Below, one piece after another: positions 25 through 9,687 of a stretch of 9,687 bases of DNA; position 1 is the first letter of the stretch, and each line of letters opens with the position of its first letter. Under the pieces are notes generated by a model. It was not told the origin of the DNA and did not search any database. It saw only the letters and a list, made by a program, of their open reading frames with translations. The DNA lies in the NCBI GenBank assembly GCA_036845085.1, contig DAIUEN010000008.1, positions 1 through 9,687 on the forward strand. Direction: 5' to 3'. Origin of the DNA: Candidatus Nanopusillus sp. (GTDB taxonomy: Archaea; Nanobdellota; Nanobdellia; Nanobdellales; Nanobdellaceae). The position numbers and the translations under genes were made by a program.

Positions 25-1920
25 ATGATAAGAAAATATACTAATCCAGAACCTTTATATACTTTAGGAATAGAACAAATAGGTTCTATATTCAATATAC
101 TAAATAAAAGACCAAATGAATCAATAAATTCAGTTAATGTAACATATGGTTTATTTAGTAAAAATAATACAAATGTTATAGTAAACTTTTATTTAAATAA
201 TACTCTAGTAGCTCAAAAAACTTATACTCTTTCGGCATTGCAAACTCTAATAGATTCTTTTGTTTATATTTTAGATCAGGAAGGAACATTCAACATAACT
301 CTTGTAGCAAATTTTATAGATGTTAATCGTACATCATCTGATAGTTTTAGAATTCTTATAGACCTTAAAGATCCTGTTTTATATTTTATAAACGGAATTC
401 CATATGTTTATGATGTATCACCTTCAGATTGTTATACTAAACCAGATAAAGTAATATGTATAGATGCATTCAACCATACTTCTGAGTATTCTTATAATTA
501 TATATTATCGAATATTAGCATACAAAATTCGGATTTATTTTTATATTTATTTGCAACAAATAATCCTAGAAATATCTCTATAAACTTTACTAATGTTTCA
601 TTAATAGAATCTAATTTTAGTAATGTAAGGGTTGTATGTACTAATTGTACTTTTGGTAGAACTAATCAAATAATATATATTAATAATTCGGCATTAATTT
701 ATATCATCAGAGACAAAAATTTATTATTTAATAGCTTAACTTTGAGTAATACTTCAAATTATACAGTTGGTAAAACAGATTTAATTTTGATCAGAGATTA
801 TTATCCTATACTAAATGTATATGGAGATAATGATCGAATAATATCATGGCTATTTATTTCATATATAAATAGGAATAATTTTCAAGAAATATTAAATAAT
901 GGTAATTTTAGAATATATACAGATGTAGAATTTTCAGTAAGAGATTATTTCAGTTTATCTACTCTACAATTTCATAGACTACCTCTCGGAACAACAACAA
1001 CAATAACAATAAACCTTAGTGGTTATCCAATAATTACTAGAACATTTCCTTTTGCATTCTCGAATTTTATATTAGCAAATGAAACACCAAAACTACAAAT
1101 ATTATTACCTAGATTGGAAACTGCAAGAATCCTAAGAATATATGTAAAACCAGCAGGATATTATGTTTATCTCTATAAAAGAGCTGGAAATAATTGGGAA
1201 TTAGTAAGTTTTGCAAAATCTCAACCAACACTCGCAGGAGAACTCCTATTTATAATACCAGAAACAGATTATCTAAGATTTGAATTTTATGATCAAAATG
1301 CAAATCTCGTTTATTGGCATGAAGATATTATTTCTGGAAATGATTATGAGTTCAACTTAGAAGAAAAATCTACTGTTTCATATTCAGTAACAAGGAAAGA
1401 AATGATACCATTATATATATTAGGTAATCCTTATGAATTTAATGCTACAAATATGACCTTTATATTTAATAAAAATGTAACATCTGTGGAATTATGGTAT
1501 TTACAAGGAAATAAATGGTATAGAAAATCATTAGGAATTTCAAATACACCAGTAGTATTTATTAATACTTCGAAAGAGATAAATCTAGAAAATGTATACA
1601 GAGTAGTATATGTATTTAAATTTGAAGATAACAGAACAATTTGGTTAGAATATAGAATTGTACCACCATATTTAGGTTTTGAAGAAATCAAAAATTTAGT
1701 ATCTAGCGATACTGTTATAAAACTAATATTTATATTATCTGCATTATTATTCTTAGCAATAGTCTATGTCTCAACTCTAAGTGAATACTTCCATATTGGT
1801 ACTACTATAATCACAATAATATTTTTAATGTTACTTGGAGCAGTAACACTAGATTTCGGCATTGTTTTAATAATATTAACAATATTAACATATAGTGGAC
1901 TAAGTAAATATAGTATATAA
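25..1920 (+). CDS. Large sequon-rich, C-terminally membrane-anchored surface or spike-like protein (631 aa from the first ATG; may be 5' truncated by the window edge)
   Basis: Long uninterrupted ORF. By manual count about 23 N-x-S/T sequons, all N-terminal of the hydrophobic C-terminus (VIKLIFILSALLFLAIVYV and IITIIFLMLLGAVTLDFGIVLIILTILTY). The central segment NISINFTNVSLIESNFSNVRVVCTNCTF...IIYINNSALIYII looks like parallel beta-helix repeats. No N-terminal signal peptide follows the ATG at 25, and frame 1 is open from nt 1 (EWWGVDKI-M), so the true start may lie upstream of the window. Confidence 0.8.
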   Translation: MIRKYTNPEPLYTLGIEQIGSIFNILNKRPNESINSVNVTYGLFSKNNTNVIVNFYLNNTLVAQKTYTLSALQTLIDSFVYILDQEGTFNITLVANFIDVNRTSSDSFRILIDLKDPVLYFINGIPYVYDVSPSDCYTKPDKVICIDAFNHTSEYSYNYILSNISIQNSDLFLYLFATNNPRNISINFTNVSLIESNFSNVRVVCTNCTFGRTNQIIYINNSALIYIIRDKNLLFNSLTLSNTSNYTVGKTDLILIRDYYPILNVYGDNDRIISWLFISYINRNNFQEILNNGNFRIYTDVEFSVRDYFSLSTLQFHRLPLGTTTTITINLSGYPIITRTFPFAFSNFILANETPKLQILLPRLETARILRIYVKPAGYYVYLYKRAGNNWELVSFAKSQPTLAGELLFIIPETDYLRFEFYDQNANLVYWHEDIISGNDYEFNLEEKSTVSYSVTRKEMIPLYILGNPYEFNATNMTFIFNKNVTSVELWYLQGNKWYRKSLGISNTPVVFINTSKEINLENVYRVVYVFKFEDNRTIWLEYRIVPPYLGFEEIKNLVSSDTVIKLIFILSALLFLAIVYVSTLSEYFHIGTTIITIIFLMLLGAVTLDFGIVLIILTILTYSGLSKYSI

Positions 1921-4141: not shown

Positions 4142-4620
4142 TGATGAATGAAAATACAAAAAAAGAAGAATTTGTTAGTCTAGATCTAAGAGTTTTACCA
4201 TATTGGAATCTAATAAGAATTGCAAAAATTATTGAAGATAGAGTTCTAAATATAGATAGTACTGAATATTTATTAAGATTAACACATGAAATTCCGAATC
4301 CAGATATAATAAAAAATGAGATTTTAAAAAGATTAAAAAACTTATATTCAATTTCACTTGCAATATTATCAATTTATGGTAGAGAAAAAGAAATATTAAA
4401 GGATTATAAAGAAATTATGAGTATACCTAATATTGATGAAATACTACCTAGAATCTCATATTATACAACTAAAATATTAACAGAATTATATCAATTAATG
4501 AAAGATTTAGGTTTATTACCAAAAGAAAGAGAAAGAGACGAATTAGAAGAGCTTGAAGATTTCTTAAGTACAAAATTATACGAAGAAGATGGAACTACTG
4601 GAGAAACAACTAATAGATAA
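4138..4620 (+). CDS. Helical hypothetical protein with acidic C-terminus
   Basis: 160-aa ORF whose start overlaps the upstream stop (ATGA). Composition is consistent with the neighbouring genes. The C-terminus is RERDELEELEDFLSTKLYEEDGTTGETTNR. No motif recognised. Confidence 0.7.
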   Translation: MMMNENTKKEEFVSLDLRVLPYWNLIRIAKIIEDRVLNIDSTEYLLRLTHEIPNPDIIKNEILKRLKNLYSISLAILSIYGREKEILKDYKEIMSIPNIDEILPRISYYTTKILTELYQLMKDLGLLPKERERDELEELEDFLSTKLYEEDGTTGETTNR

Positions 4621-5422
4621 ATTTTTTAATGTAGAGATTCCAAAAAAATCAGTCTTAGAATTTTTTAAATCAAAATATCCACATATTTTTTTTGCATATT
4701 TAATAAAAAGAACTTTTAGAGAAGATTGGAATCTAGAAATTGTCATTGATGGGAATAAAGGTGTAGGGAAATCTTATTTAGGATTTAAAATATTAGAAAC
4801 TTTTACTTATTTAGATTCAAAAGAAAAATATTCTCAAGACATCATCAAAAAATCTTTTATTGTTCCTTTACCTGTTACATCATTATCAGATAAAGAAGAA
4901 ATAAACTTAATAGTAGAACAAATCAAAGAAGCTTTAGAAGATGATAATATTAAATTGATTGTTTTTGATGAAGCAGGAGATTTATTATTTACTTATGATA
5001 GAATGACAAAAGAAGCGAAATTATTAGTAAAAATATTAAGGAAAGTTAGAAAATATAAAAAATCATTTATATTTATTCATCCGCATATTTTTGAATTAAA
5101 TCCTAATATAAAATATAGATCTTTTAGTTTATGGATACATGGCTTATATAGAGTTTATAATAAATATTCAAGGTTTGTAGTATTAAGAGGTATTGACTAT
5201 AAAAAAGAATTTGTTTATTCTTTGGATCATATAAAGCATGCTTTGGATGTTTATAACATACAAGGTTGGTTTAAAAATAAATATTATTTATTTTCTTTTA
5301 ATTTTAATTATAATCCTGATGATTATTCAAATTATAAAGAATTATTAAGGGAAAAACAACAAGAACTTATCTTATCTAAAGAAACAAAAATTTATGGAGT
5401 AACTATAAGAGAAATTTATTAA
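4589..5422 (+). CDS. P-loop NTPase (candidate virion-assembly, packaging or replication ATPase)
   Basis: Walker A is GNKGVGKS (aa 55-62, nt 4751-4774). Walker B is IKLIVFDEAG (D127/E128, nt 4967-4972). The only in-frame ATG before the P-loop is at 4589, overlapping the upstream gene by 32 nt. It is the last gene of the operon and is followed by T-tracts. Confidence 0.85.
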   Translation: MELLEKQLIDKFFNVEIPKKSVLEFFKSKYPHIFFAYLIKRTFREDWNLEIVIDGNKGVGKSYLGFKILETFTYLDSKEKYSQDIIKKSFIVPLPVTSLSDKEEINLIVEQIKEALEDDNIKLIVFDEAGDLLFTYDRMTKEAKLLVKILRKVRKYKKSFIFIHPHIFELNPNIKYRSFSLWIHGLYRVYNKYSRFVVLRGIDYKKEFVYSLDHIKHALDVYNIQGWFKNKYYLFSFNFNYNPDDYSNYKELLREKQQELILSKETKIYGVTIREIY

Positions 5423-5424
5423 AA

Positions 5425-5450
5425 TTTTTAGTACAACTCAATAATTTTTT
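5425..5450 (+). terminator. Oligo-T tracts downstream of the operon (archaeal-type terminator candidates)
   Basis: T5 at 5425-5429 and T6 at 5445-5450 lie just after the TAA at 5420-5422. Archaeal RNA polymerase terminates at oligo-T. The background is very AT-rich, so specificity is low. Confidence 0.35.
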
Positions 5451-5485
5451 AAATATTAGTGAGTATATTACTCCATTCTCGTGAT

Positions 5486-5495
5486 GCACATGTGC
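5486..5495. repeat. Perfect 10-bp palindrome GCACATGTGC inside a locally GC-rich island (about 5478-5510)
   Basis: Read directly. It is embedded in ctcgtgatGCACATGTGCtacctctgatcgg, which is far more GC-rich than its surroundings. Confidence 0.5.
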
Positions 5496-5555
5496 TACCT
5501 CTGATCGGTAAAAAATAGAAAAGATAATATTTTAAATTATAAATTATAGGGAACA

Positions 5556-5645
5556 CTTTGGGTACCTTTTGGGTACCCATGTCATCAAAAAAATTTTTTT
5601 TTTTGAAAATCGAGGGTAACGAATGGGTACCCAAAGAGTACCCAT
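5556..5645. promoter_or_regulatory. Inverted, helically phased GGGTACC-box array flanking an A7T11 tract (candidate origin of replication or operator)
   Basis: Two perfect 10-bp palindromes TGGGTACCCA sit at 5570-5579 and 5624-5633. Each has a degenerate copy 11 bp further out (TGGGTACCTT at 5559-5568 and AGAGTACCCA at 5635-5644). TTTGGGTACCCAT (5568-5580) is the exact reverse complement of ATGGGTACCCAAA (5623-5635). The spacer contains TCA7T11GA (5585-5606) and a degenerate GGGTAAC (5614-5620). Confidence 0.6.
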
Positions 5646-5734
5646 CCATTAGACTTAACCTAGATAAATTTTTTGTGTCTTTCTGTTGTTACTATTCAAT
5701 ACTAAAACGTTAGTTTTATAAAATATGATGTTCG

Positions 5735-5760
5735 TTGATTATCATTATTGATTATCAATA
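5735..5760. repeat. TTGATTATCA direct repeat (13-bp period) overlapping a 15-bp palindrome
   Basis: TTGATTATCA occurs at 5735-5744 and 5748-5757. TATTGAT-T-ATCAATA at 5746-5760 is a palindrome with perfect 7-bp arms. Confidence 0.5.
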
Positions 5761-5770
5761 TCAAAATTTG

Positions 5771-5814
5771 GAAACCTCACGCGTAGGTGGACGTCCACTC
5801 CTGTATGAGATTTC
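5771..5814. other. GC-rich imperfect inverted repeat or hairpin with a central perfect 12-bp palindrome (candidate structured RNA or protein-binding site)
   Basis: GAAACCTCA (5771-5779) pairs with TGAGATTTC (5806-5814) at 8 of 9 positions. The centre is GTGGACGTCCAC (5787-5798), a perfect palindrome. Local G+C is far above the window background. Confidence 0.45.
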
Positions 5815-6126
5815 AAAAATTGCATTTTTGTTACTTTTTAGTGACAAAATTATCAAAATTTATTCATAAATATATACGATAATTTTAACCATAATTTAGT
5901 GGTGTATGTGTGTCTCTACTGATATATCAAACAATAAAAATAAATAATATATATATTTTCTTTTTTAGAATTTTGTTATAATATAAATATTCCTATTAAT
6001 AATATTATTAATTAGTAATAAAACAAAACTATTACAAAGCTAACATATATTATCACAATATTTCAGATTATTTTTAAATAATAAAAAGACGTTAAATTTT
6101 TAAATTTTAAGGTATAATAATATAAT

Positions 6127-6809: not shown

Positions 6810-7061
6810 ATGTTAAACAATTATCAAAAAGGACGTGCTAAAGAATATCGAATCAAACAAAAATTAAAAAAAGAAGGATATTATACTATTAGAAGTGCAG
6901 GATCACATTCATATTTTGATTTGATTGCAATAAACAAAGAAAAAAAAGAAATATTACTTATACAAGTAAAATCAAATAAAACCAAAAAAATAGAAGAATT
7001 TTATCAAAAATTAAATAATGAGTTTAGTGGACAATACACTGTTAAAGTTGTATTATTGTAA
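6810..7061 (+). CDS. hjc: Minimal archaeal Hjc-type Holliday-junction-resolvase-like PD-(D/E)xK nuclease (83 aa) with QxK in place of ExK
   Basis: YQKGRAKEYRIKQKLKKEGYYTIRSAGSHSYFDLIAINKEKKEILLIQVKS aligns by eye with my recollection of Pyrococcus Hjc ([48 protein letters not shown]). E12, the RSAGS motif, D37 and K54 are conserved. The position of catalytic Glu46 is Gln52 (CAA, 6963-6965). The protein stops about 40 aa short of the roughly 120-140 aa typical of Hjc. Confidence 0.7.
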   Translation: MLNNYQKGRAKEYRIKQKLKKEGYYTIRSAGSHSYFDLIAINKEKKEILLIQVKSNKTKKIEEFYQKLNNEFSGQYTVKVVLL

Positions 7062-7064
7062 CAA

Positions 7065-7412
7065 TTAGCTAGTGTAATTTTGTTTTTGTTTCTTTTTATT
7101 TTGTAGAGTCAACTTATATGTTACTATTACTAACTCATCTTTAAATTCAACATTTGTAACTTGCATGCTTTTGATTTCTATATTATTATCGTCATAATAT
7201 TTACTTTTTAGTTCTTTTTCTATATATTGTTTTAGATAATCTTTAACATGATTTTTCTCAAAATAATTTTTTACTATTTCCCGTATAATAAATCTTCTTT
7301 GTAATTGGTAATACCATCTCATTGTTTGTAAAATATCTTGAGCTTTGATACTAATATCACTAAATAAATTGCCATCTTGATCAAAATAAACACTAACGTA
7401 TACATAACTCAT
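7065..7412 (-). CDS. Hypothetical protein (115 aa from the internal ATG; the track ORF extends to 7544)
   Basis: This is the only convincing minus-strand gene. It converges on the hjc-like gene with a 3-bp gap. The track start at 7544 would overlap the divergent gene's ATG (7536) and adds 44 low-complexity codons across the intergenic AT-rich region. The ATG at 7412-7410 (MSYVYVSVYFDQDGN...) begins the part with protein-like composition. No motif recognised. Confidence 0.6.
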   Translation of the reverse strand: MSYVYVSVYFDQDGNLFSDISIKAQDILQTMRWYYQLQRRFIIREIVKNYFEKNHVKDYLKQYIEKELKSKYYDDNNIEIKSMQVTNVEFKDELVIVTYKLTLQNKKKQKQNYTS

Positions 7413-7467
7413 ATTCCTATATATTATGTAAAAAAATTTATTAGTTTTTGTGTTTATGTTTTTAAAA

Positions 7468-7531
7468 CTACAATGTAGTACTAGTATATACACTAGTAGC
7501 AAAAATTTATTAATATTTCGTATTAATATTT
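7468..7531. promoter_or_regulatory. Palindrome-rich and repeat-rich divergent control region
   Basis: CTACA-A-TGTAG lies at 7468-7478. TACTAGT (7479-7485) and ACTAGTA (7492-7498) are inverted repeats around ATATAC, giving two ACTAGT cores 12 bp apart. TATTAATATTT is directly repeated at 7508-7518 and 7521-7531, ending 5 nt before the ATG at 7536 (TATA-like, compatible with a short or absent leader). Confidence 0.4.
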
Positions 7532-7535
7532 TATT

Positions 7536-7790
7536 ATGGCTCAATTGGTTCAGATACCTACAAGCGAAATTTTGTCTAAGCTGAGAGATACAATAAAGAG
7601 CCTAGAAGTATTAGAGAACAGCAGTATGAATATAATTCTTGGCTTTGAGGTTAAAATAACCAAAGTATCACAATATAGGTATTTAGCGAATTTATCAAAA
7701 TTTGAAATAACTGAAAAAGATAAATTAGTTGGAATAAGGATAAAAGATTTATTGATATTCTTAATAAAGAAAAATGAGAGATCCAATTGA
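7536..7790 (+). CDS. Small hypothetical protein (84 aa), first gene of a three-gene overlapping cassette
   Basis: ORF with composition like its neighbours. It overlaps the next gene by 17 nt. The N-terminus QLVQIPTSEILSKLRD is faintly AbrB/SpoVT-like, but I cannot support that call. Confidence 0.65.
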   Translation: MAQLVQIPTSEILSKLRDTIKSLEVLENSSMNIILGFEVKITKVSQYRYLANLSKFEITEKDKLVGIRIKDLLIFLIKKNERSN

Positions 7791-8343
7791 ACAAATAAAA
7801 TTTTATCTAGATCAAGTAAAAGCAGATATACTAGAGCAAATAAAACAAACTAAAAAAGAGATAATAGAATATATTGACAAAAATCTAAATAAAATATCAG
7901 AAACTAAACCAAAAAGAAATTTCAACATCGAAAACTATATTAAAATAACAGATTATTTATTACAATTACACAAAGAAAAACCAACCAAAGCATATTTATA
8001 TAATCAACTAATAAAAGATATAAACAATAAACTAAATATAGAACAAGATGAAATCAAAAATATACTTAATTTATTAATTAAAAAAAGAATATTATTTAAA
8101 ATAGATTCTCCAAATAATGAGGAATTATATATAATATCTAAAAAAATACTGAGATATCAAAATAAAAAATCAAATACTAATCAAGATAATAAAAAACAAG
8201 AAACACAAAGTACTCAAGATCAACAACAAGATCAAAACAAAAATGAAAGTACAGTGAAACCAGCTGAAGTTCTTGATTTATCAGTATCTAAAAAATATGT
8301 TTCTAGACAAGCAGTTGATCAGTATTCTAGAGAAATCTATTAA
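7774..8343 (+). CDS. Hypothetical protein with a possible winged-helix DNA-binding core and a Q/N/K-rich low-complexity region
   Basis: 189-aa ORF. The segment ITDYLLQLHKEKPTKAYLYNQLIKDINNKLNIEQDEIKNILNLLIKKRILFKIDSPNNEELYIIS has a helix-helix-helix-hairpin pattern typical of wHTH domains (inference only). The low-complexity stretch is NKKSNTNQDNKKQETQSTQDQQQDQNKNES. Confidence 0.7.
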   Translation: MRDPIEQIKFYLDQVKADILEQIKQTKKEIIEYIDKNLNKISETKPKRNFNIENYIKITDYLLQLHKEKPTKAYLYNQLIKDINNKLNIEQDEIKNILNLLIKKRILFKIDSPNNEELYIISKKILRYQNKKSNTNQDNKKQETQSTQDQQQDQNKNESTVKPAEVLDLSVSKKYVSRQAVDQYSREIY

Positions 8344-9687
8344 AAGAAGAGAAGATATAGCTGCATTCTATGAATTAGCAAGTTTAGTATCTAATAACAA
8401 AAGCATAGATTTAAAAGAACTAGAAAGATTATTTCAAATTTATATAAAAAGTAAGAATGATACACTATTAAAATTGGAGTTATCAAAATATGGAAAAACT
8501 ACATTTTTTGGAAGGATACAAGCATGGAAAGTAGATATTTCTAGAAAACTAATAATTGTAAGATTGTCAGATAAATTAAGGGCAATAATTCCATTAGATT
8601 TATTTGAATCTTTAGATCCCTACGAAATAATACGAGAATTAGATAACCTAATAGAAATGCAAATAGTACGAAATGGTGGAAATAATCTTGTGATATCACT
8701 AACTACGTATAATATAAATGAAGACAAAAATTCTGCACAAAAAATATTAGAACAAGAACATCCAATTAAAGTTTTAGTAGAAGCATTAGGATTTTACTTT
8801 AATTATAATACATTTAGGGCAAACCTACCGAGAATAATTGCATTATTTAAGGTTCCTGTTGATGTCTATGCATCTTCAGCAATTCATCTACTACAATTTA
8901 CATTACCTGGAACAGGAAAATCAACAACAATGTACAAATTATGGAATATTTTAAATTTAGAGATCATAGGAGGTGGTCTACCATCTCCTGCTAAACTTAT
9001 TTATAATGCACAAACTCATGAAAAAGGATTAGTATATACAAGAGATTATATTATATTAGATGAATTTGATAAAAGTATCAAAAAAGAAAACTATGAATTT
9101 TTTAGTATGATACAATCAGGTATGGCTAATGGAATATGGACAAGAGAAAAATCTACAAAACTTCCATTAGGTAAACTTAAAAAAGATACTACTTTAATAT
9201 TCTTCGGAAATATAGAAGGAAATCTACTTAGAAATACAGAAAACTTTAGAGATTATATTGAAAGATATATACACGGTGTTCTAGAATCGGAAAATATAGC
9301 AAAAGCTTTTACAGATAGAATTTCAATAATCGATTTATATACTGGCAAACCATTAGTAGAATATACACATGATAAAATACCAATAGCTGCCATATTACGA
9401 GGTATCTTTAGAATTTTAGAAGAAAAAGCATATCAAATTGAAGCTCCAAACTTTGATCTAATTGGAAGACAGAGAATTCATGCAAAACAAATATACAAAG
9501 TTATAAGAGCATTAGGAATAGAAGAACCTCTAGCATATGAATTTACTCAAAATTTAGTTACTGGTGATGCTAACATAGAAAATACGTATAAAGAAGTATA
9601 TAAACAGATTACAGGAAAAGATCCTGATTCAGAATCTAATAAAAAATCAGATACATCGGAACTTGTCAAAAAAATAGAGATAAAAGA
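8297..9687 (+). CDS. AAA+ ATPase of the MCM / BrxL(Lon-like) / MoxR clade with an N-terminal domain of about 200 aa; 3' partial (runs off the window); candidate replicative helicase or initiator
   Basis: Not in the supplied track. I translated frame 2 by hand. There is a stop at 8255-8257, the first ATG is at 8297, and no stop follows through 9687 (463 codons). Walker A is LPGTGKST (nt 8906-8926). Walker B is YIILDEFDK (nt 9050-9073), matching the MCM-style DEFDK. The next segment FFSMIQSGMANGIWTREKS resembles the helix-2-insert region. The sensor-1-like motif is TTLIFFGN (N305, nt 9209-9211). The Arg-finger-like motif is AFTDRISIIDL (R341, nt 9317-9319; compare MCM LLSRFDLIF and MoxR LLDRF). 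Confidence 0.85.
   Translation, partial: MFLDKQLISILEKSIKRREDIAAFYELASLVSNNKSIDLKELERLFQIYIKSKNDTLLKLELSKYGKTTFFGRIQAWKVDISRKLIIVRLSDKLRAIIPLDLFESLDPYEIIRELDNLIEMQIVRNGGNNLVISLTTYNINEDKNSAQKILEQEHPIKVLVEALGFYFNYNTFRANLPRIIALFKVPVDVYASSAIHLLQFTLPGTGKSTTMYKLWNILNLEIIGGGLPSPAKLIYNAQTHEKGLVYTRDYIILDEFDKSIKKENYEFFSMIQSGMANGIWTREKSTKLPLGKLKKDTTLIFFGNIEGNLLRNTENFRDYIERYIHGVLESENIAKAFTDRISIIDLYTGKPLVEYTHDKIPIAAILRGIFRILEEKAYQIEAPNFDLIGRQRIHAKQIYKVIRALGIEEPLAYEFTQNLVTGDANIENTYKEVYKQITGKDPDSESNKKSDTSELVKKIEIK

What the first reader, a model, noticed from the sequence alone, without database searches (positions are those of the whole stretch)
8297..9687. Untracked ORF of more than 463 aa: divergent MCM/BrxL-clade AAA+ ATPase
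The largest gene of the right half is absent from the ORF track because it has no stop within the window. It combines a classical GKS/T P-loop with the MCM-style Walker B DEFDK. It also has an M-x-x-x-MA-x-G-x-W-T-R-x-K segment after Walker B, an FFGN sensor-1 strand and an F-x-D-R-I Arg-finger motif. As far as I recall BREX BrxL (Lon-like) ATPases, they show a very similar run: DE..., ...MASG.F.RGK..., ...F.GN..., ...AFFDRF.... BrxL is structurally MCM-like. One reading is a mobile element using a BrxL-like rather than a canonical MCM helicase. The other is a stand-alone BrxL-like defence ATPase carried by a virus. Either would be unusual. The N-terminal region of about 200 aa has no motif I recognise.
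Basis: partly seen in the sequence, partly recalled or inferred. Interest (0 to 1): 0.75.

Follow-up and report, generated by a model that had tools for sequence, protein, structure and literature searches.

The report
Archaeal-virus gp18/BrxL-type ring ATPase gene
The open-ended gene is real and encodes a 475-residue DNA-handling AAA+ ATPase related to the BREX defence protein BrxL, but it belongs to a family already known as a core replication/recombination gene (gp18) of archaeal rod-shaped and filamentous viruses, so it is a new distant member of a known kind, here on a probable mobile element or virus tentatively linked to Nanoarchaeota.

Summary
The ORF at 8297-9687 (+) is real. It has 463 stop-free codons, and chance would give this with P~5e-21. 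It is intact in four independent assemblies. Two short contigs extend past the window end and close the ORF 12 codons later, giving 475 aa. Assemblies break at base 9687 because two strain variants diverge exactly there.

Pfam BrxL_ATPase (PF13337) is the only hit and is above its cut-off. The family profile hits BrxL 8emc at 5.6e-11. A high-confidence AF2 model (pLDDT 90) matches BrxL first (E~1e-15) and MCMs second (E~1e-10). No MCM, MoxR or Lon profile matches.

The closest relatives are the gp18/ORF436 proteins of Rudiviridae and Lipothrixviridae (PHROG 6542 E=4.6e-24; whole-chain TM 0.71-0.78). These are a documented core "ssDNA-annealing ATPase". The protein has no Lon-like C-terminal domain and no BREX neighbours. 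Relatives sit on small virus-like contigs, some beside Cas4-like nucleases or a fusellovirus VP2 gene. The only genomic relatives are in a Candidatus Nanopusillus MAG.

Verdict: a replication/recombination ring ATPase of an uncharacterised archaeal mobile element. It is a new member of a known kind, of moderate-to-low interest.

The parts
8297..9687 (+). gp18/BrxL-type AAA+ ATPase gene. The window holds codons 1-463 of 475; the stop lies 36 nt plus TAA beyond the window end.
8297..8716 (+). N-terminal domain (aa 1-140): four helices (5-65) followed by a beta-barrel (strands 67-138). It matches the N-terminal parts of gp18 proteins and of short BrxL models.
   Evidence: AF2 secondary structure with pLDDT 79-96. 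PHROG 6542 alignment starts at aa 29. PADLOC BrxL PDLC02505 aligns aa 36-312. Foldseek alignments to BrxL span about 490 columns.
8906..8926 (+). Walker A P-loop, PGTGKST (aa 204-210)
   Evidence: K208 invariant 48/48, G207 44/48
9053..9073 (+). Walker B, ILDEFDK (aa 253-259)
   Evidence: D255 46/48, E256 41/48 (5 members have Ala), D258 41/48, K259 43/48. Aligns with BrxL FDEVAG, which contains E280.
9107..9154 (+). Helix plus insert before sensor 1, MIQSGMANGIWTREKS (aa 271-286). Candidate DNA-contacting pore loop (inferred).
   Evidence: G275 47/48, W281 45/48, R283 42/48. Aligns with BrxL MASGSFARGRE. Lower pLDDT (71) in the 281-290 block fits a loop.
9194..9211 (+). Sensor-1 strand, LIFFGN (aa 300-305)
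   Evidence: N305 invariant 48/48, G304 44/48. Strand 299-305 in the model.
9305..9334 (+). AFTDRISIID (aa 337-346), containing the candidate arginine finger R341
   Evidence: R341 47/48. It lies between helix 332-340 and strand 344-348 of the model. The role is inferred from its position in the AAA+ fold.
9464..9481 (+). Start of a lid-domain helix, GRQRIH (aa 390-395), containing the candidate sensor-2 R391
   Evidence: R391 44/48. Helix 390-405 in the model. Role inferred.
7774..8343 (+). Upstream 189-aa ORF overlapping the ATPase start by 47 nt, so probably translationally coupled. A syntenic homologue exists in L004/L005. Function unknown, with only faint HTH signals.
   Evidence: (29% identity to the 177-aa ORF upstream of P0001). 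No similarity to SIRV2 gp17. AF2 model unusable, pLDDT 59.6.
6810..7061 (+). Hjc-like PD-(D/E)xK nuclease ORF (83 aa) in the same gene block. Possible recombination partner.
   Evidence: Pfam Hjc 30.4 bits against a cut-off of 21.1; PHROG 6591 Holliday junction resolvase 3.5e-6

Best explanation
The ORF encodes a 475-aa, two-domain AAA+ ATPase of the PF13337 (BrxL_ATPase) family. It belongs to the short, virus-borne branch typified by SIRV2 gp18/ORF436.

Shown here: homology, domain architecture, intact catalytic motifs, absence of a Lon-like C-terminal domain, and mobile-element context.

Inferred: like BrxL, it assembles into a hexameric or heptameric ring around DNA. ATP is bound and hydrolysed at subunit interfaces through K208, D255/E256, N305, R341 (acting in trans) and R391. 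DNA is contacted in the pore by the conserved G-x-W-x-R loop (W281/R283). Because it lacks the BrxL C-terminal domain that joins two rings tail-to-tail, it probably works as a single ring.

Most likely role: DNA remodelling (strand annealing or translocation) during replication-coupled recombination or genome maturation of an uncharacterised archaeal virus or plasmid. It probably acts with the translationally coupled upstream 189-aa protein and the nearby Hjc-like nuclease. This mirrors the rudiviral gp17-gp18-gp19 cassette plus Hjc resolvase. The host is probably a Nanoarchaeota (Nanopusillus-like) cell, on weak evidence.
For: Family placement:
- Pfam BrxL_ATPase is the sole hit, above its cut-off, and 39 of 48 family members hit it.
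- PHROG 6542 matches at E=4.6e-24 over aa 29-409 of a 435-position profile.
- tblastn to SIRV1/2/3 gp18 gives E 4e-15 at 83% coverage.
- The family profile scores SIRV2 gp18 at 282 bits nearly end to end.

Structure:
- AF2 model with pLDDT 90.3 and pTM 0.90.
- Whole-chain matches to the SIRV9 protein (TM 0.73/0.78) and AFV2 ORF425 (TM 0.71/0.77, rmsd 3.6 A).
- BrxL at E~1e-15 and MCMs at E~1e-10.

Catalytic residues are conserved.

Function of relatives:
- gp18 is an ssDNA-annealing protein within an ssDNA-binding/annealing/nuclease operon (PMC5062984; PMC8093625; bioRxiv 10.1101/2020.01.16.907410).
- BrxL is a DNA-dependent ATPase with DNA in its pore, and its C-terminal domain mediates ring dimerisation (PMC10164562).

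Context:
- An Hjc-like gene lies 1.2 kb upstream in the window.
- Relatives lie near Cas4-like/PD-(D/E)xK nucleases: L007 and L017.
- One relative lies next to a fusellovirus VP2-type gene: L015/L016.
- No BREX genes occur anywhere.

Host hint: the only two genomic relatives are in a Candidatus Nanopusillus MAG. Those contigs share a DUF2341-type large protein with the window. Window GC is 24.6%.
Against: - No biochemical data exist for this protein. Identity to gp18 is only about 25%, so activity may differ.
- The primary gp18 paper (Guo et al. 2015) could not be read. Its results are known here only through citing papers.
- The window lacks recognisable gp17-like and Cas4-like partners. The downstream 186-aa ORF has no Pfam match.
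- The upstream partner protein could not be modelled.
- Ring assembly and pore-loop roles are inferred from BrxL, not computed.
- The element is incomplete, so viral versus plasmid nature is unresolved. No capsid signature was found.
- Host assignment rests on MAG binning alone.
Confidence: 0.65

Rival explanations
1. It is the element's replicative helicase. It would be an MCM analogue that unwinds DNA at a fork, loaded at an origin in the 5423-6126 gap by the 277-aa P-loop protein or the coupled 189-aa protein.
For: - MCM subunits are the second-best structural class (E 1e-10 to 1e-9).
- The subfamily consensus has MCM-like DEFDK and G-M-E-x-G-x-W-x-R motifs.
- No other replication protein is recognisable in the 9.7 kb.
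- An origin-like structure lies 2.7 kb upstream: four GGGTACCC-type sites against 0.18 expected, arranged as an inverted repeat around A7T11, with a DNA fold z-score of -5.9.
- The adjacent P-loop ORF has a weak DnaA/DnaC-like PHROG match at 1e-6.
Against: - No MCM profile match at E<=10 in this protein or in 48 relatives.
- No Cys residues, so no MCM-type zinc finger.
- Helicase activity could not be demonstrated for BrxL.
- gp18 is reported as an annealing protein, not a helicase.
- The element is incomplete, so other replication genes may lie outside the window.
Confidence: 0.2
2. It is a stand-alone BrxL-like defence or superinfection-exclusion ATPase carried by a mobile element. It would block replication of competing viruses.
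For: It shares homology with the BREX factor BrxL. Mobile elements often carry defence genes.
Against: - It scores far below the NCBIfam BrxL equivalog cut-offs: 46 against 329, and 22 against 628.
- No PglZ, PglX, BrxA, BrxB or BrxC is found in the window or in seven related loci.
- The gene keeps a conserved position beside a syntenic upstream partner in related elements.
- Its viral homologues are core genes of Rudiviridae, not accessory ones.
Confidence: 0.07
3. It is a Lon-type protein unfoldase or chaperone, as the old 'Lon protease' or 'protease' annotations suggest, or else a genome-packaging motor.
For: The family carries legacy 'Lon protease' and 'protease' labels. The AAA+ ring architecture is compatible with any translocase role.
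Against: - There is no protease domain. The ORF ends at 475 aa.
- No Lon, Lon_C or other Pfam AAA family matches.
- BrxL holds DNA, not protein, in its pore, and its C-terminal domain lacks protease residues.
- gp18 acts on ssDNA.
- A separate small P-loop NTPase at 4589-5422 is the better packaging or assembly candidate.
Confidence: 0.05

Closest known systems
SIRV2 gp18 (ORF436) and orthologues in Rudiviridae and Lipothrixviridae (PHROG 6542), the 'ssDNA annealing ATPase' of the gp17-gp18-gp19 cassette
   Same: - Same length class (425-440 aa against 475 aa).
- Same two-domain architecture, with whole-chain TM 0.71-0.78.
- Near-full-length profile match.
- PF13337 domain and no Lon-like C-terminal domain.
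- Carried by an archaeal mobile element that also encodes an Hjc-type resolvase.
   Different: - Only about 25% identity.
- Walker B is DEFDK rather than DEIQTW.
- No recognisable gp17-like ssDNA-binding or Cas4-like nuclease neighbours in the window. The upstream partner is an unrelated 189-aa protein.
- The host lineage is probably Nanoarchaeota rather than Sulfolobales.
- No Adnaviria capsid genes were recognised.
BrxL of BREX systems (PDB 8emc/8emh; TIGR02653 long form, TIGR02688 short form)
   Same: - Homologous N-terminal domain plus AAA+ module.
- Best solved-structure match, E~1e-15.
- Aligned motifs: GTGKS, DE, MAxGxxxR and F(V/F)GN.
- Probably a DNA-encircling ring.
   Different: - Lacks the C-terminal Lon-like domain (BrxL residues 498-679) that dimerises the rings.
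- Far below the equivalog cut-offs.
- No BREX gene neighbourhood.
- TM to BrxL is only 0.5-0.59, against more than 0.7 to viral gp18 proteins.
MCM replicative helicase (PF00493; superfamily 6)
   Same: - Second-ranked structural neighbours.
- The AAA+ core has an insert before sensor 1.
- DEFDK Walker B and an arginine following an F-x-D motif, reminiscent of SRFD.
   Different: - No sequence-profile match.
- No zinc-binding cysteines.
- No winged-helix C-terminus recognised.
- TM about 0.45-0.5 with rmsd 9-16 A.

Membership tests
PF13337 BrxL_ATPase domain family | Score above the Pfam gathering threshold for PF13337 | tested here: met
   52.6 bits against a cut-off of 25, aa 145-343. 39 of 48 relatives also match.
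gp18 / PHROG 6542 (rudiviral and lipothrixviral ssDNA-annealing ATPase) | Near-full-length sequence-profile match | tested here: met
   E=4.6e-24, aa 29-409 against profile positions 28-409 of 435. tblastn to SIRV1/2 gp18 gives 4e-15 at 83% coverage. The family profile scores gp18 at 282 bits.
gp18 / PHROG 6542 | Same whole-chain fold (N-terminal domain plus AAA+ plus lid, no C-terminal protease-like domain) | tested here: met
   Foldseek against BFVD: SIRV9 protein TM 0.73/0.78; AFV2 ORF425 TM 0.71/0.77 with rmsd 3.6 A. Query model pLDDT 90.3.
gp18 / PHROG 6542 | Cassette with an upstream gp17-type ssDNA-binding protein and a downstream Cas4-like nuclease | tested here: not met
   The upstream 189-aa ORF has no similarity to gp17. 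The downstream 186-aa ORF has no Pfam hit. However, relatives L007 and L017 have Cas4-like/PDDEXK genes nearby, and the window has an Hjc-like nuclease.
gp18 / PHROG 6542 | ssDNA-annealing activity | not testable with these tools
   Known for SIRV2 gp18 only through citing papers. The primary paper is not held.
BrxL (BREX system component) | Score above the NCBIfam equivalog cut-off (TIGR02688 or TIGR02653) | tested here: not met
   46.2 bits against 329.3, and 22.2 bits against 628.25.
BrxL (BREX system component) | Neighbourhood with BREX core genes (pglZ/brxZ, brxC/pglY, pglX) | tested here: not met
   None in the window or in related loci L004, L005, L007, L012, L014-L017.
BrxL (long form, 8emc type) | C-terminal Lon/RadA-like domain | tested here: not met
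   The ORF stops at 475 aa in L008 and L010. The complete homologue P0001 is 467 aa, and the family is mostly 400-480 aa. The BrxL C-terminal domain spans residues 498-679.
MCM helicase | PF00493 MCM domain match | tested here: not met
   No hit at E<=10. 0 of 48 relatives match. No MCM chain at E<=1 with the family profile against PDB sequences.
MCM helicase | Zinc-binding N-terminal domain (Cys/His cluster) | tested here: not met
   The 475-aa protein contains no cysteine.
MCM helicase | Structural similarity of the N-terminal domain plus AAA+ module | tested here: met
   Foldseek E 1e-10 to 1e-9 and TMq 0.42-0.50, ranked after all BrxL chains.
MoxR / Mg-chelatase / Lon AAA+ families | Pfam profile match | tested here: not met
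   No such hit at E<=10. A MoxR-like viral protein reaches only E 1e-6 with TM 0.26.

The most novel reading that the evidence does not exclude
A group of small, very AT-rich mobile elements or viruses of Nanoarchaeota lack MCM, Rep and primase genes. They use this gp18/BrxL-type ring ATPase as their replicative helicase. It would be loaded at the GGGTACCC inverted-repeat/A7T11 structure (5549-5644) by the adjacent P-loop protein or by the translationally coupled 189-aa protein. This would make the gp18/BrxL clade a third functional lineage of MCM-like replicative helicases. It would also suggest that BREX BrxL was recruited from a viral replication protein.
Probability: 0.15. Interest if true: 0.6.

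Novelty: new member of a known kind. Interest (0 to 1): 0.3.

Why it matters
- It extends the gp18/PF13337 ATPase family well beyond Sulfolobales viruses. The family was previously tied to rod-shaped and filamentous viruses of Sulfolobales and, separately, to BREX defence. Here it appears on very AT-rich elements tentatively linked to Nanoarchaeota, for which few viruses or plasmids, to my knowledge, have been described.
- The family is rare: 91 clusters at 50% identity among 1.84 billion representatives.
- The high-confidence model makes explicit that viral gp18 proteins are BrxL without the C-terminal domain and share an MCM-like core. The BrxL structure paper does not mention this link (no occurrence of 'SIRV', 'rudivirus' or 'archaeal virus').
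- This offers a simpler, single-ring system for asking what BrxL-type rings do to DNA: annealing, translocation or unwinding.
- It does not overturn anything. A virus carrying this ATPase is expected rather than unusual.

Tried and rejected
1. Circular closure. Joining the window end to its start closes the ORF after 8 codons with a neat TAATG overlap onto the ORF at base 25. I rejected this because L008 and L010 show a different, real continuation, and the window ends share no overlap or terminal inverted repeat.
2. Physical genome terminus or att site at 9687. Rejected. The break is an assembly bubble between variants about 5% apart, and the 127-nt overlap fits adjoining edges of an assembly graph. 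No tRNA was found.
3. Relatives in IMG/VR. None were found by pattern scan or by an exact match to the window end. The window DNA has no match among phage records.
4. gp17-like upstream partner. No similarity. The single-sequence AF2 model is unusable (pLDDT 59.6). The protein database search found only the protein itself.
5. Cas4-like downstream partner. The 186-aa ORF has no Pfam hit.
6. Capsid or virus hallmark genes in the window. None were found with Pfam or PHROGs. The 277-aa ATPase has no phage tblastn hit.
7. RNA gene in the 5423-6126 gap. The only Rfam hits are below threshold and lie on the inverted repeat.
9. A 19,461-bp contig said to carry the 189-aa protein could not be retrieved.
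10. The primary gp18 biochemistry paper is not held.
Full report
**Observation**

Translating window 8297-9687 (+) gives 463 codons without a stop. The mechanical ORF list omits it only because it runs off the window. At 24.6% GC the per-codon stop probability is 0.096, so an open stretch this long has a chance probability of about 5e-21. The same gene occurs in independent assemblies from other samples. L001 has 2 nucleotide differences, L002 has 3, and L003 has none over its overlap. None has a stop. The one slip is trivial: the spacing is M-x4-MA rather than M-x3-MA.

**Completing the ORF**

The window, L001 and L002 all end at the same base. I first noticed that joining the window end to its start would close the ORF after 8 codons. 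A metagenome scan with the last 34 nt then found two 1189-nt contigs, L008 and L010. They overlap window 9561-9687 and continue for 1062 nt. Both extend the ORF by 12 codons, DWRDLFK(S/N)(K/T)AEL-stop, giving 475 aa. They differ from each other at 53 positions, and the first difference is the base right after 9687. So the shared contig end is an assembly bubble caused by strain variation. It is neither a genome terminus nor a circular junction. A 186-aa ORF with no Pfam match follows. The complete homologue P0001 (467 aa) and the other close relatives end within a few residues of the same point. No Lon-like C-terminal domain follows.

**Family placement**

- Against Pfam at E<=10, the only hit is PF13337 BrxL_ATPase, 52.6 bits against a cut-off of 25. 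No MCM, MoxR, Mg-chelatase, Lon, SF3 or Orc/Cdc6 model appears.
- The NCBIfam BrxL equivalogs match only partially and far below their cut-offs: 46 against 329, and 22 against 628. PADLOC BrxL models match weakly, although PDLC02505 aligns aa 36-312.
- PHROG 6542 matches nearly end to end, at E=4.6e-24 over aa 29-409 of 435 profile positions.
- tblastn against phage records finds only Rudiviridae and Lipothrixviridae. The best are SIRV1 and SIRV2, at 25% identity, 83% coverage and E 4e-15. The SIRV2 gene is gp18/ORF436, lying between gp17 and the Cas4-like gp19.
- An exhaustive phmmer search of 1.84 billion representatives finds 91 clusters at E<=1e-3, nearly all 400-480 aa. The family is rare and uniformly short.
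- A 48-sequence alignment (A1) gives the consensus HVxQFTxPxTGKT, IDEFDK, LLTGMExGxWxR, FxGN, AFxDRxAxVD and GRxxRH. DEFDK is therefore a consensus of this alignment, although SIRV2 gp18 has DEIQTW at that position.
- The A1 profile hits BrxL 8emc at 5.6e-11 and no MCM chain at E<=1. It scores SIRV2 gp18 at 282 bits over nearly its full length.

**Structure**

AlphaFold2 with A1 gave pLDDT 90.3 and pTM 0.90. The model has these parts:
- a helical N-terminus (aa 5-65);
- a beta-barrel (aa 67-138);
- an AAA+ core, with strands at 198-202, 221-224, 251-254, 299-305 and 344-348;
- a helical lid (aa 364-462).

**What is already known about the family**

- gp18-type proteins were tabulated as 'Lon protease' ATPases of Rudiviridae and Lipothrixviridae in 2014 (PMC4124505).
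- SIRV2 gp17, gp18 and gp19 are cited as ssDNA-binding, ssDNA-annealing and ssDNA-nuclease proteins. They are proposed to act in recombination or genome maturation (PMC5062984).
- The cassette is treated as a rudivirus core module (bioRxiv 10.1101/2020.01.16.907410).
- ORF436 is explicitly noted to carry PF13337 and to be the only characterised archaeal viral single-strand annealing protein (PMC8093625).

A virus-borne BrxL-type ATPase is therefore expected, not unusual. The primary biochemical paper could not be read.

**Context**

The window is a one-strand gene array with these ORFs:
- a 631-aa protein with 23 N-x-S/T sequons (9.8 +/- 2.7 expected) and C-terminal hydrophobic segments;
- small multi-pass membrane proteins;
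- a 277-aa P-loop NTPase, with only weak AAA hits and a DnaA-like PHROG at 1e-6;
- a 700-bp gap;
- a coiled-coil protein;
- an Hjc-like nuclease (Pfam 30.4 against 21.1);
- two small ORFs, the second being the 189-aa ORF that overlaps the ATPase start by 47 nt.

The 189-aa protein has a syntenic homologue upstream of P0001. It shows no similarity to gp17.

No BREX gene occurs here or in any related locus. Instead:
- P0025 is followed by a Cas4-like nuclease.
- P0008 has a PDDEXK_1 gene upstream.
- P0006 lies beside a fusellovirus VP2-type gene (49.7 bits) and behind an AlkZ-related winged-helix protein.

The only relatives found in 185,579 reference genomes are on two contigs of a Candidatus Nanopusillus MAG. 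One of those contigs also carries a DUF2341 protein homologous to part of the window's 631-aa ORF, plus a P-loop NTPase. Together with the 24.6% GC, this suggests a Nanoarchaeota-associated element. However, the link rests on binning, and no host marker genes were seen on those contigs.

**Mechanism**

Shown: homology, fold, an intact nucleotide-binding site and mobile-element context.

Inferred:
- assembly into a ring around DNA, as in BrxL;
- ATP hydrolysis through K208, D255/E256, N305, R341 in trans and R391;
- DNA contact through the conserved G-x-W-x-R loop before sensor 1;
- operation as a single ring, because the dimerising C-terminal domain is absent.

The most likely role is DNA annealing or translocation in replication-coupled recombination or genome maturation, as proposed for gp18 (confidence 0.65).

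Rivals:
- A true replicative helicase (0.2). This is supported by the MCM-like core, the lack of other replication genes in view and an origin-like repeat structure. It is weakened by the negative helicase data for BrxL and the annealing report for gp18.
- A defence role (0.07).
- An unfoldase or packaging role (0.05). These last two have little support.

**Verdict**

The family call is correct. The claim of unusualness is not supported. This is a new, distant member of a known virus-borne ATPase family, in an uncharacterised and probably nanoarchaeal mobile element.

Noticed in passing
window 5549-5644 (within the ORF-free gap 5423-6126): Four GGGTACCC-type sites at 5560, 5571, 5625 and 5636, spaced 11 nt apart within each pair (0.18 expected; 0 of 200 shuffles reach 4). 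They form an imperfect inverted repeat around an A7T11 tract. The DNA fold is -26.5 kcal/mol, z=-5.9. This is a candidate replication origin or operator. The related elements L004 and L005 have a different inverted repeat with 37-nt arms in the equivalent gap. L001 and L002 carry small indels just upstream (about 5499-5545).
   Followed up: partly
window 9687 / L008 and L010: The window, L001 and L002 all end at the same base because two co-occurring strain variants (53 differences in 1062 nt) diverge exactly there. The 127-nt overlap with the window fits adjoining edges of an assembly graph. The element therefore continues beyond the window, with a 186-aa ORF of unknown function next.
   Followed up: yes
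window 25-1920 (+): A 631-aa ORF with 23 N-x-S/T sequons (9.8 +/- 2.7 in shuffles) and C-terminal hydrophobic segments (aa 558-627). A 127-aa stretch is 50% identical to a 943-aa DUF2341 protein in L005, and it is 34% identical to a 1131-aa DUF2341 protein on the Nanopusillus-MAG contig L012. It is probably a glycosylated surface, spike or adhesin protein.
   Followed up: partly
window 6810-7061 (+): An 83-aa Hjc-like PD-(D/E)xK protein (Pfam Hjc 30.4 bits against 21.1; PHROG Holliday junction resolvase 3.5e-6). It is short and covers only the first 54 of 93 model positions. The motif reads QVK where I recall EVK in archaeal Hjc.
   Followed up: partly
window 4589-5422 (+): A 277-aa P-loop NTPase (GNKGVGKS; DEAGD) just before the repeat-bearing gap. 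It has only sub-threshold AAA hits and a DnaA-like PHROG at 1e-6, and no tblastn hit among phage records. It could be an initiator, loader or assembly ATPase.
   Followed up: partly
alignment A1, column of window aa 256: Five of 48 family members, including the close relatives P0003, P0004, P0006 and P0007, have Ala in place of the Walker B glutamate (DAFDK). D258 and K259 stay conserved in them. Either these are hydrolysis-deficient variants or another residue acts as the catalytic base.
   Followed up: no
L011 and L012 (JBMSAQ010000037.1 and JBMSAQ010000013.1, Candidatus Nanopusillus MAG): Two paralogous contigs in one MAG carry the ATPase at the same offset (478) behind a 147-aa ORF, which again suggests strain variants or assembly breaks. 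L012 GC rises from 25% to 35% along the contig. No host marker genes were seen, so these may be viral contigs binned by composition.
   Followed up: partly
L005 1247-1489: The related element encodes an 80-aa histone-fold protein (weak precomputed Pfam hits to CBFD_NFYB_HMF and Histone). This would be a virus- or plasmid-borne archaeal histone candidate.
   Followed up: no
window 7065-7544 (-): This is the only sizeable minus-strand ORF (159 aa from TTG; called as 115 aa in L001 and L002). It has no family match and lies between the Hjc-like gene and the ATPase block.
   Followed up: no
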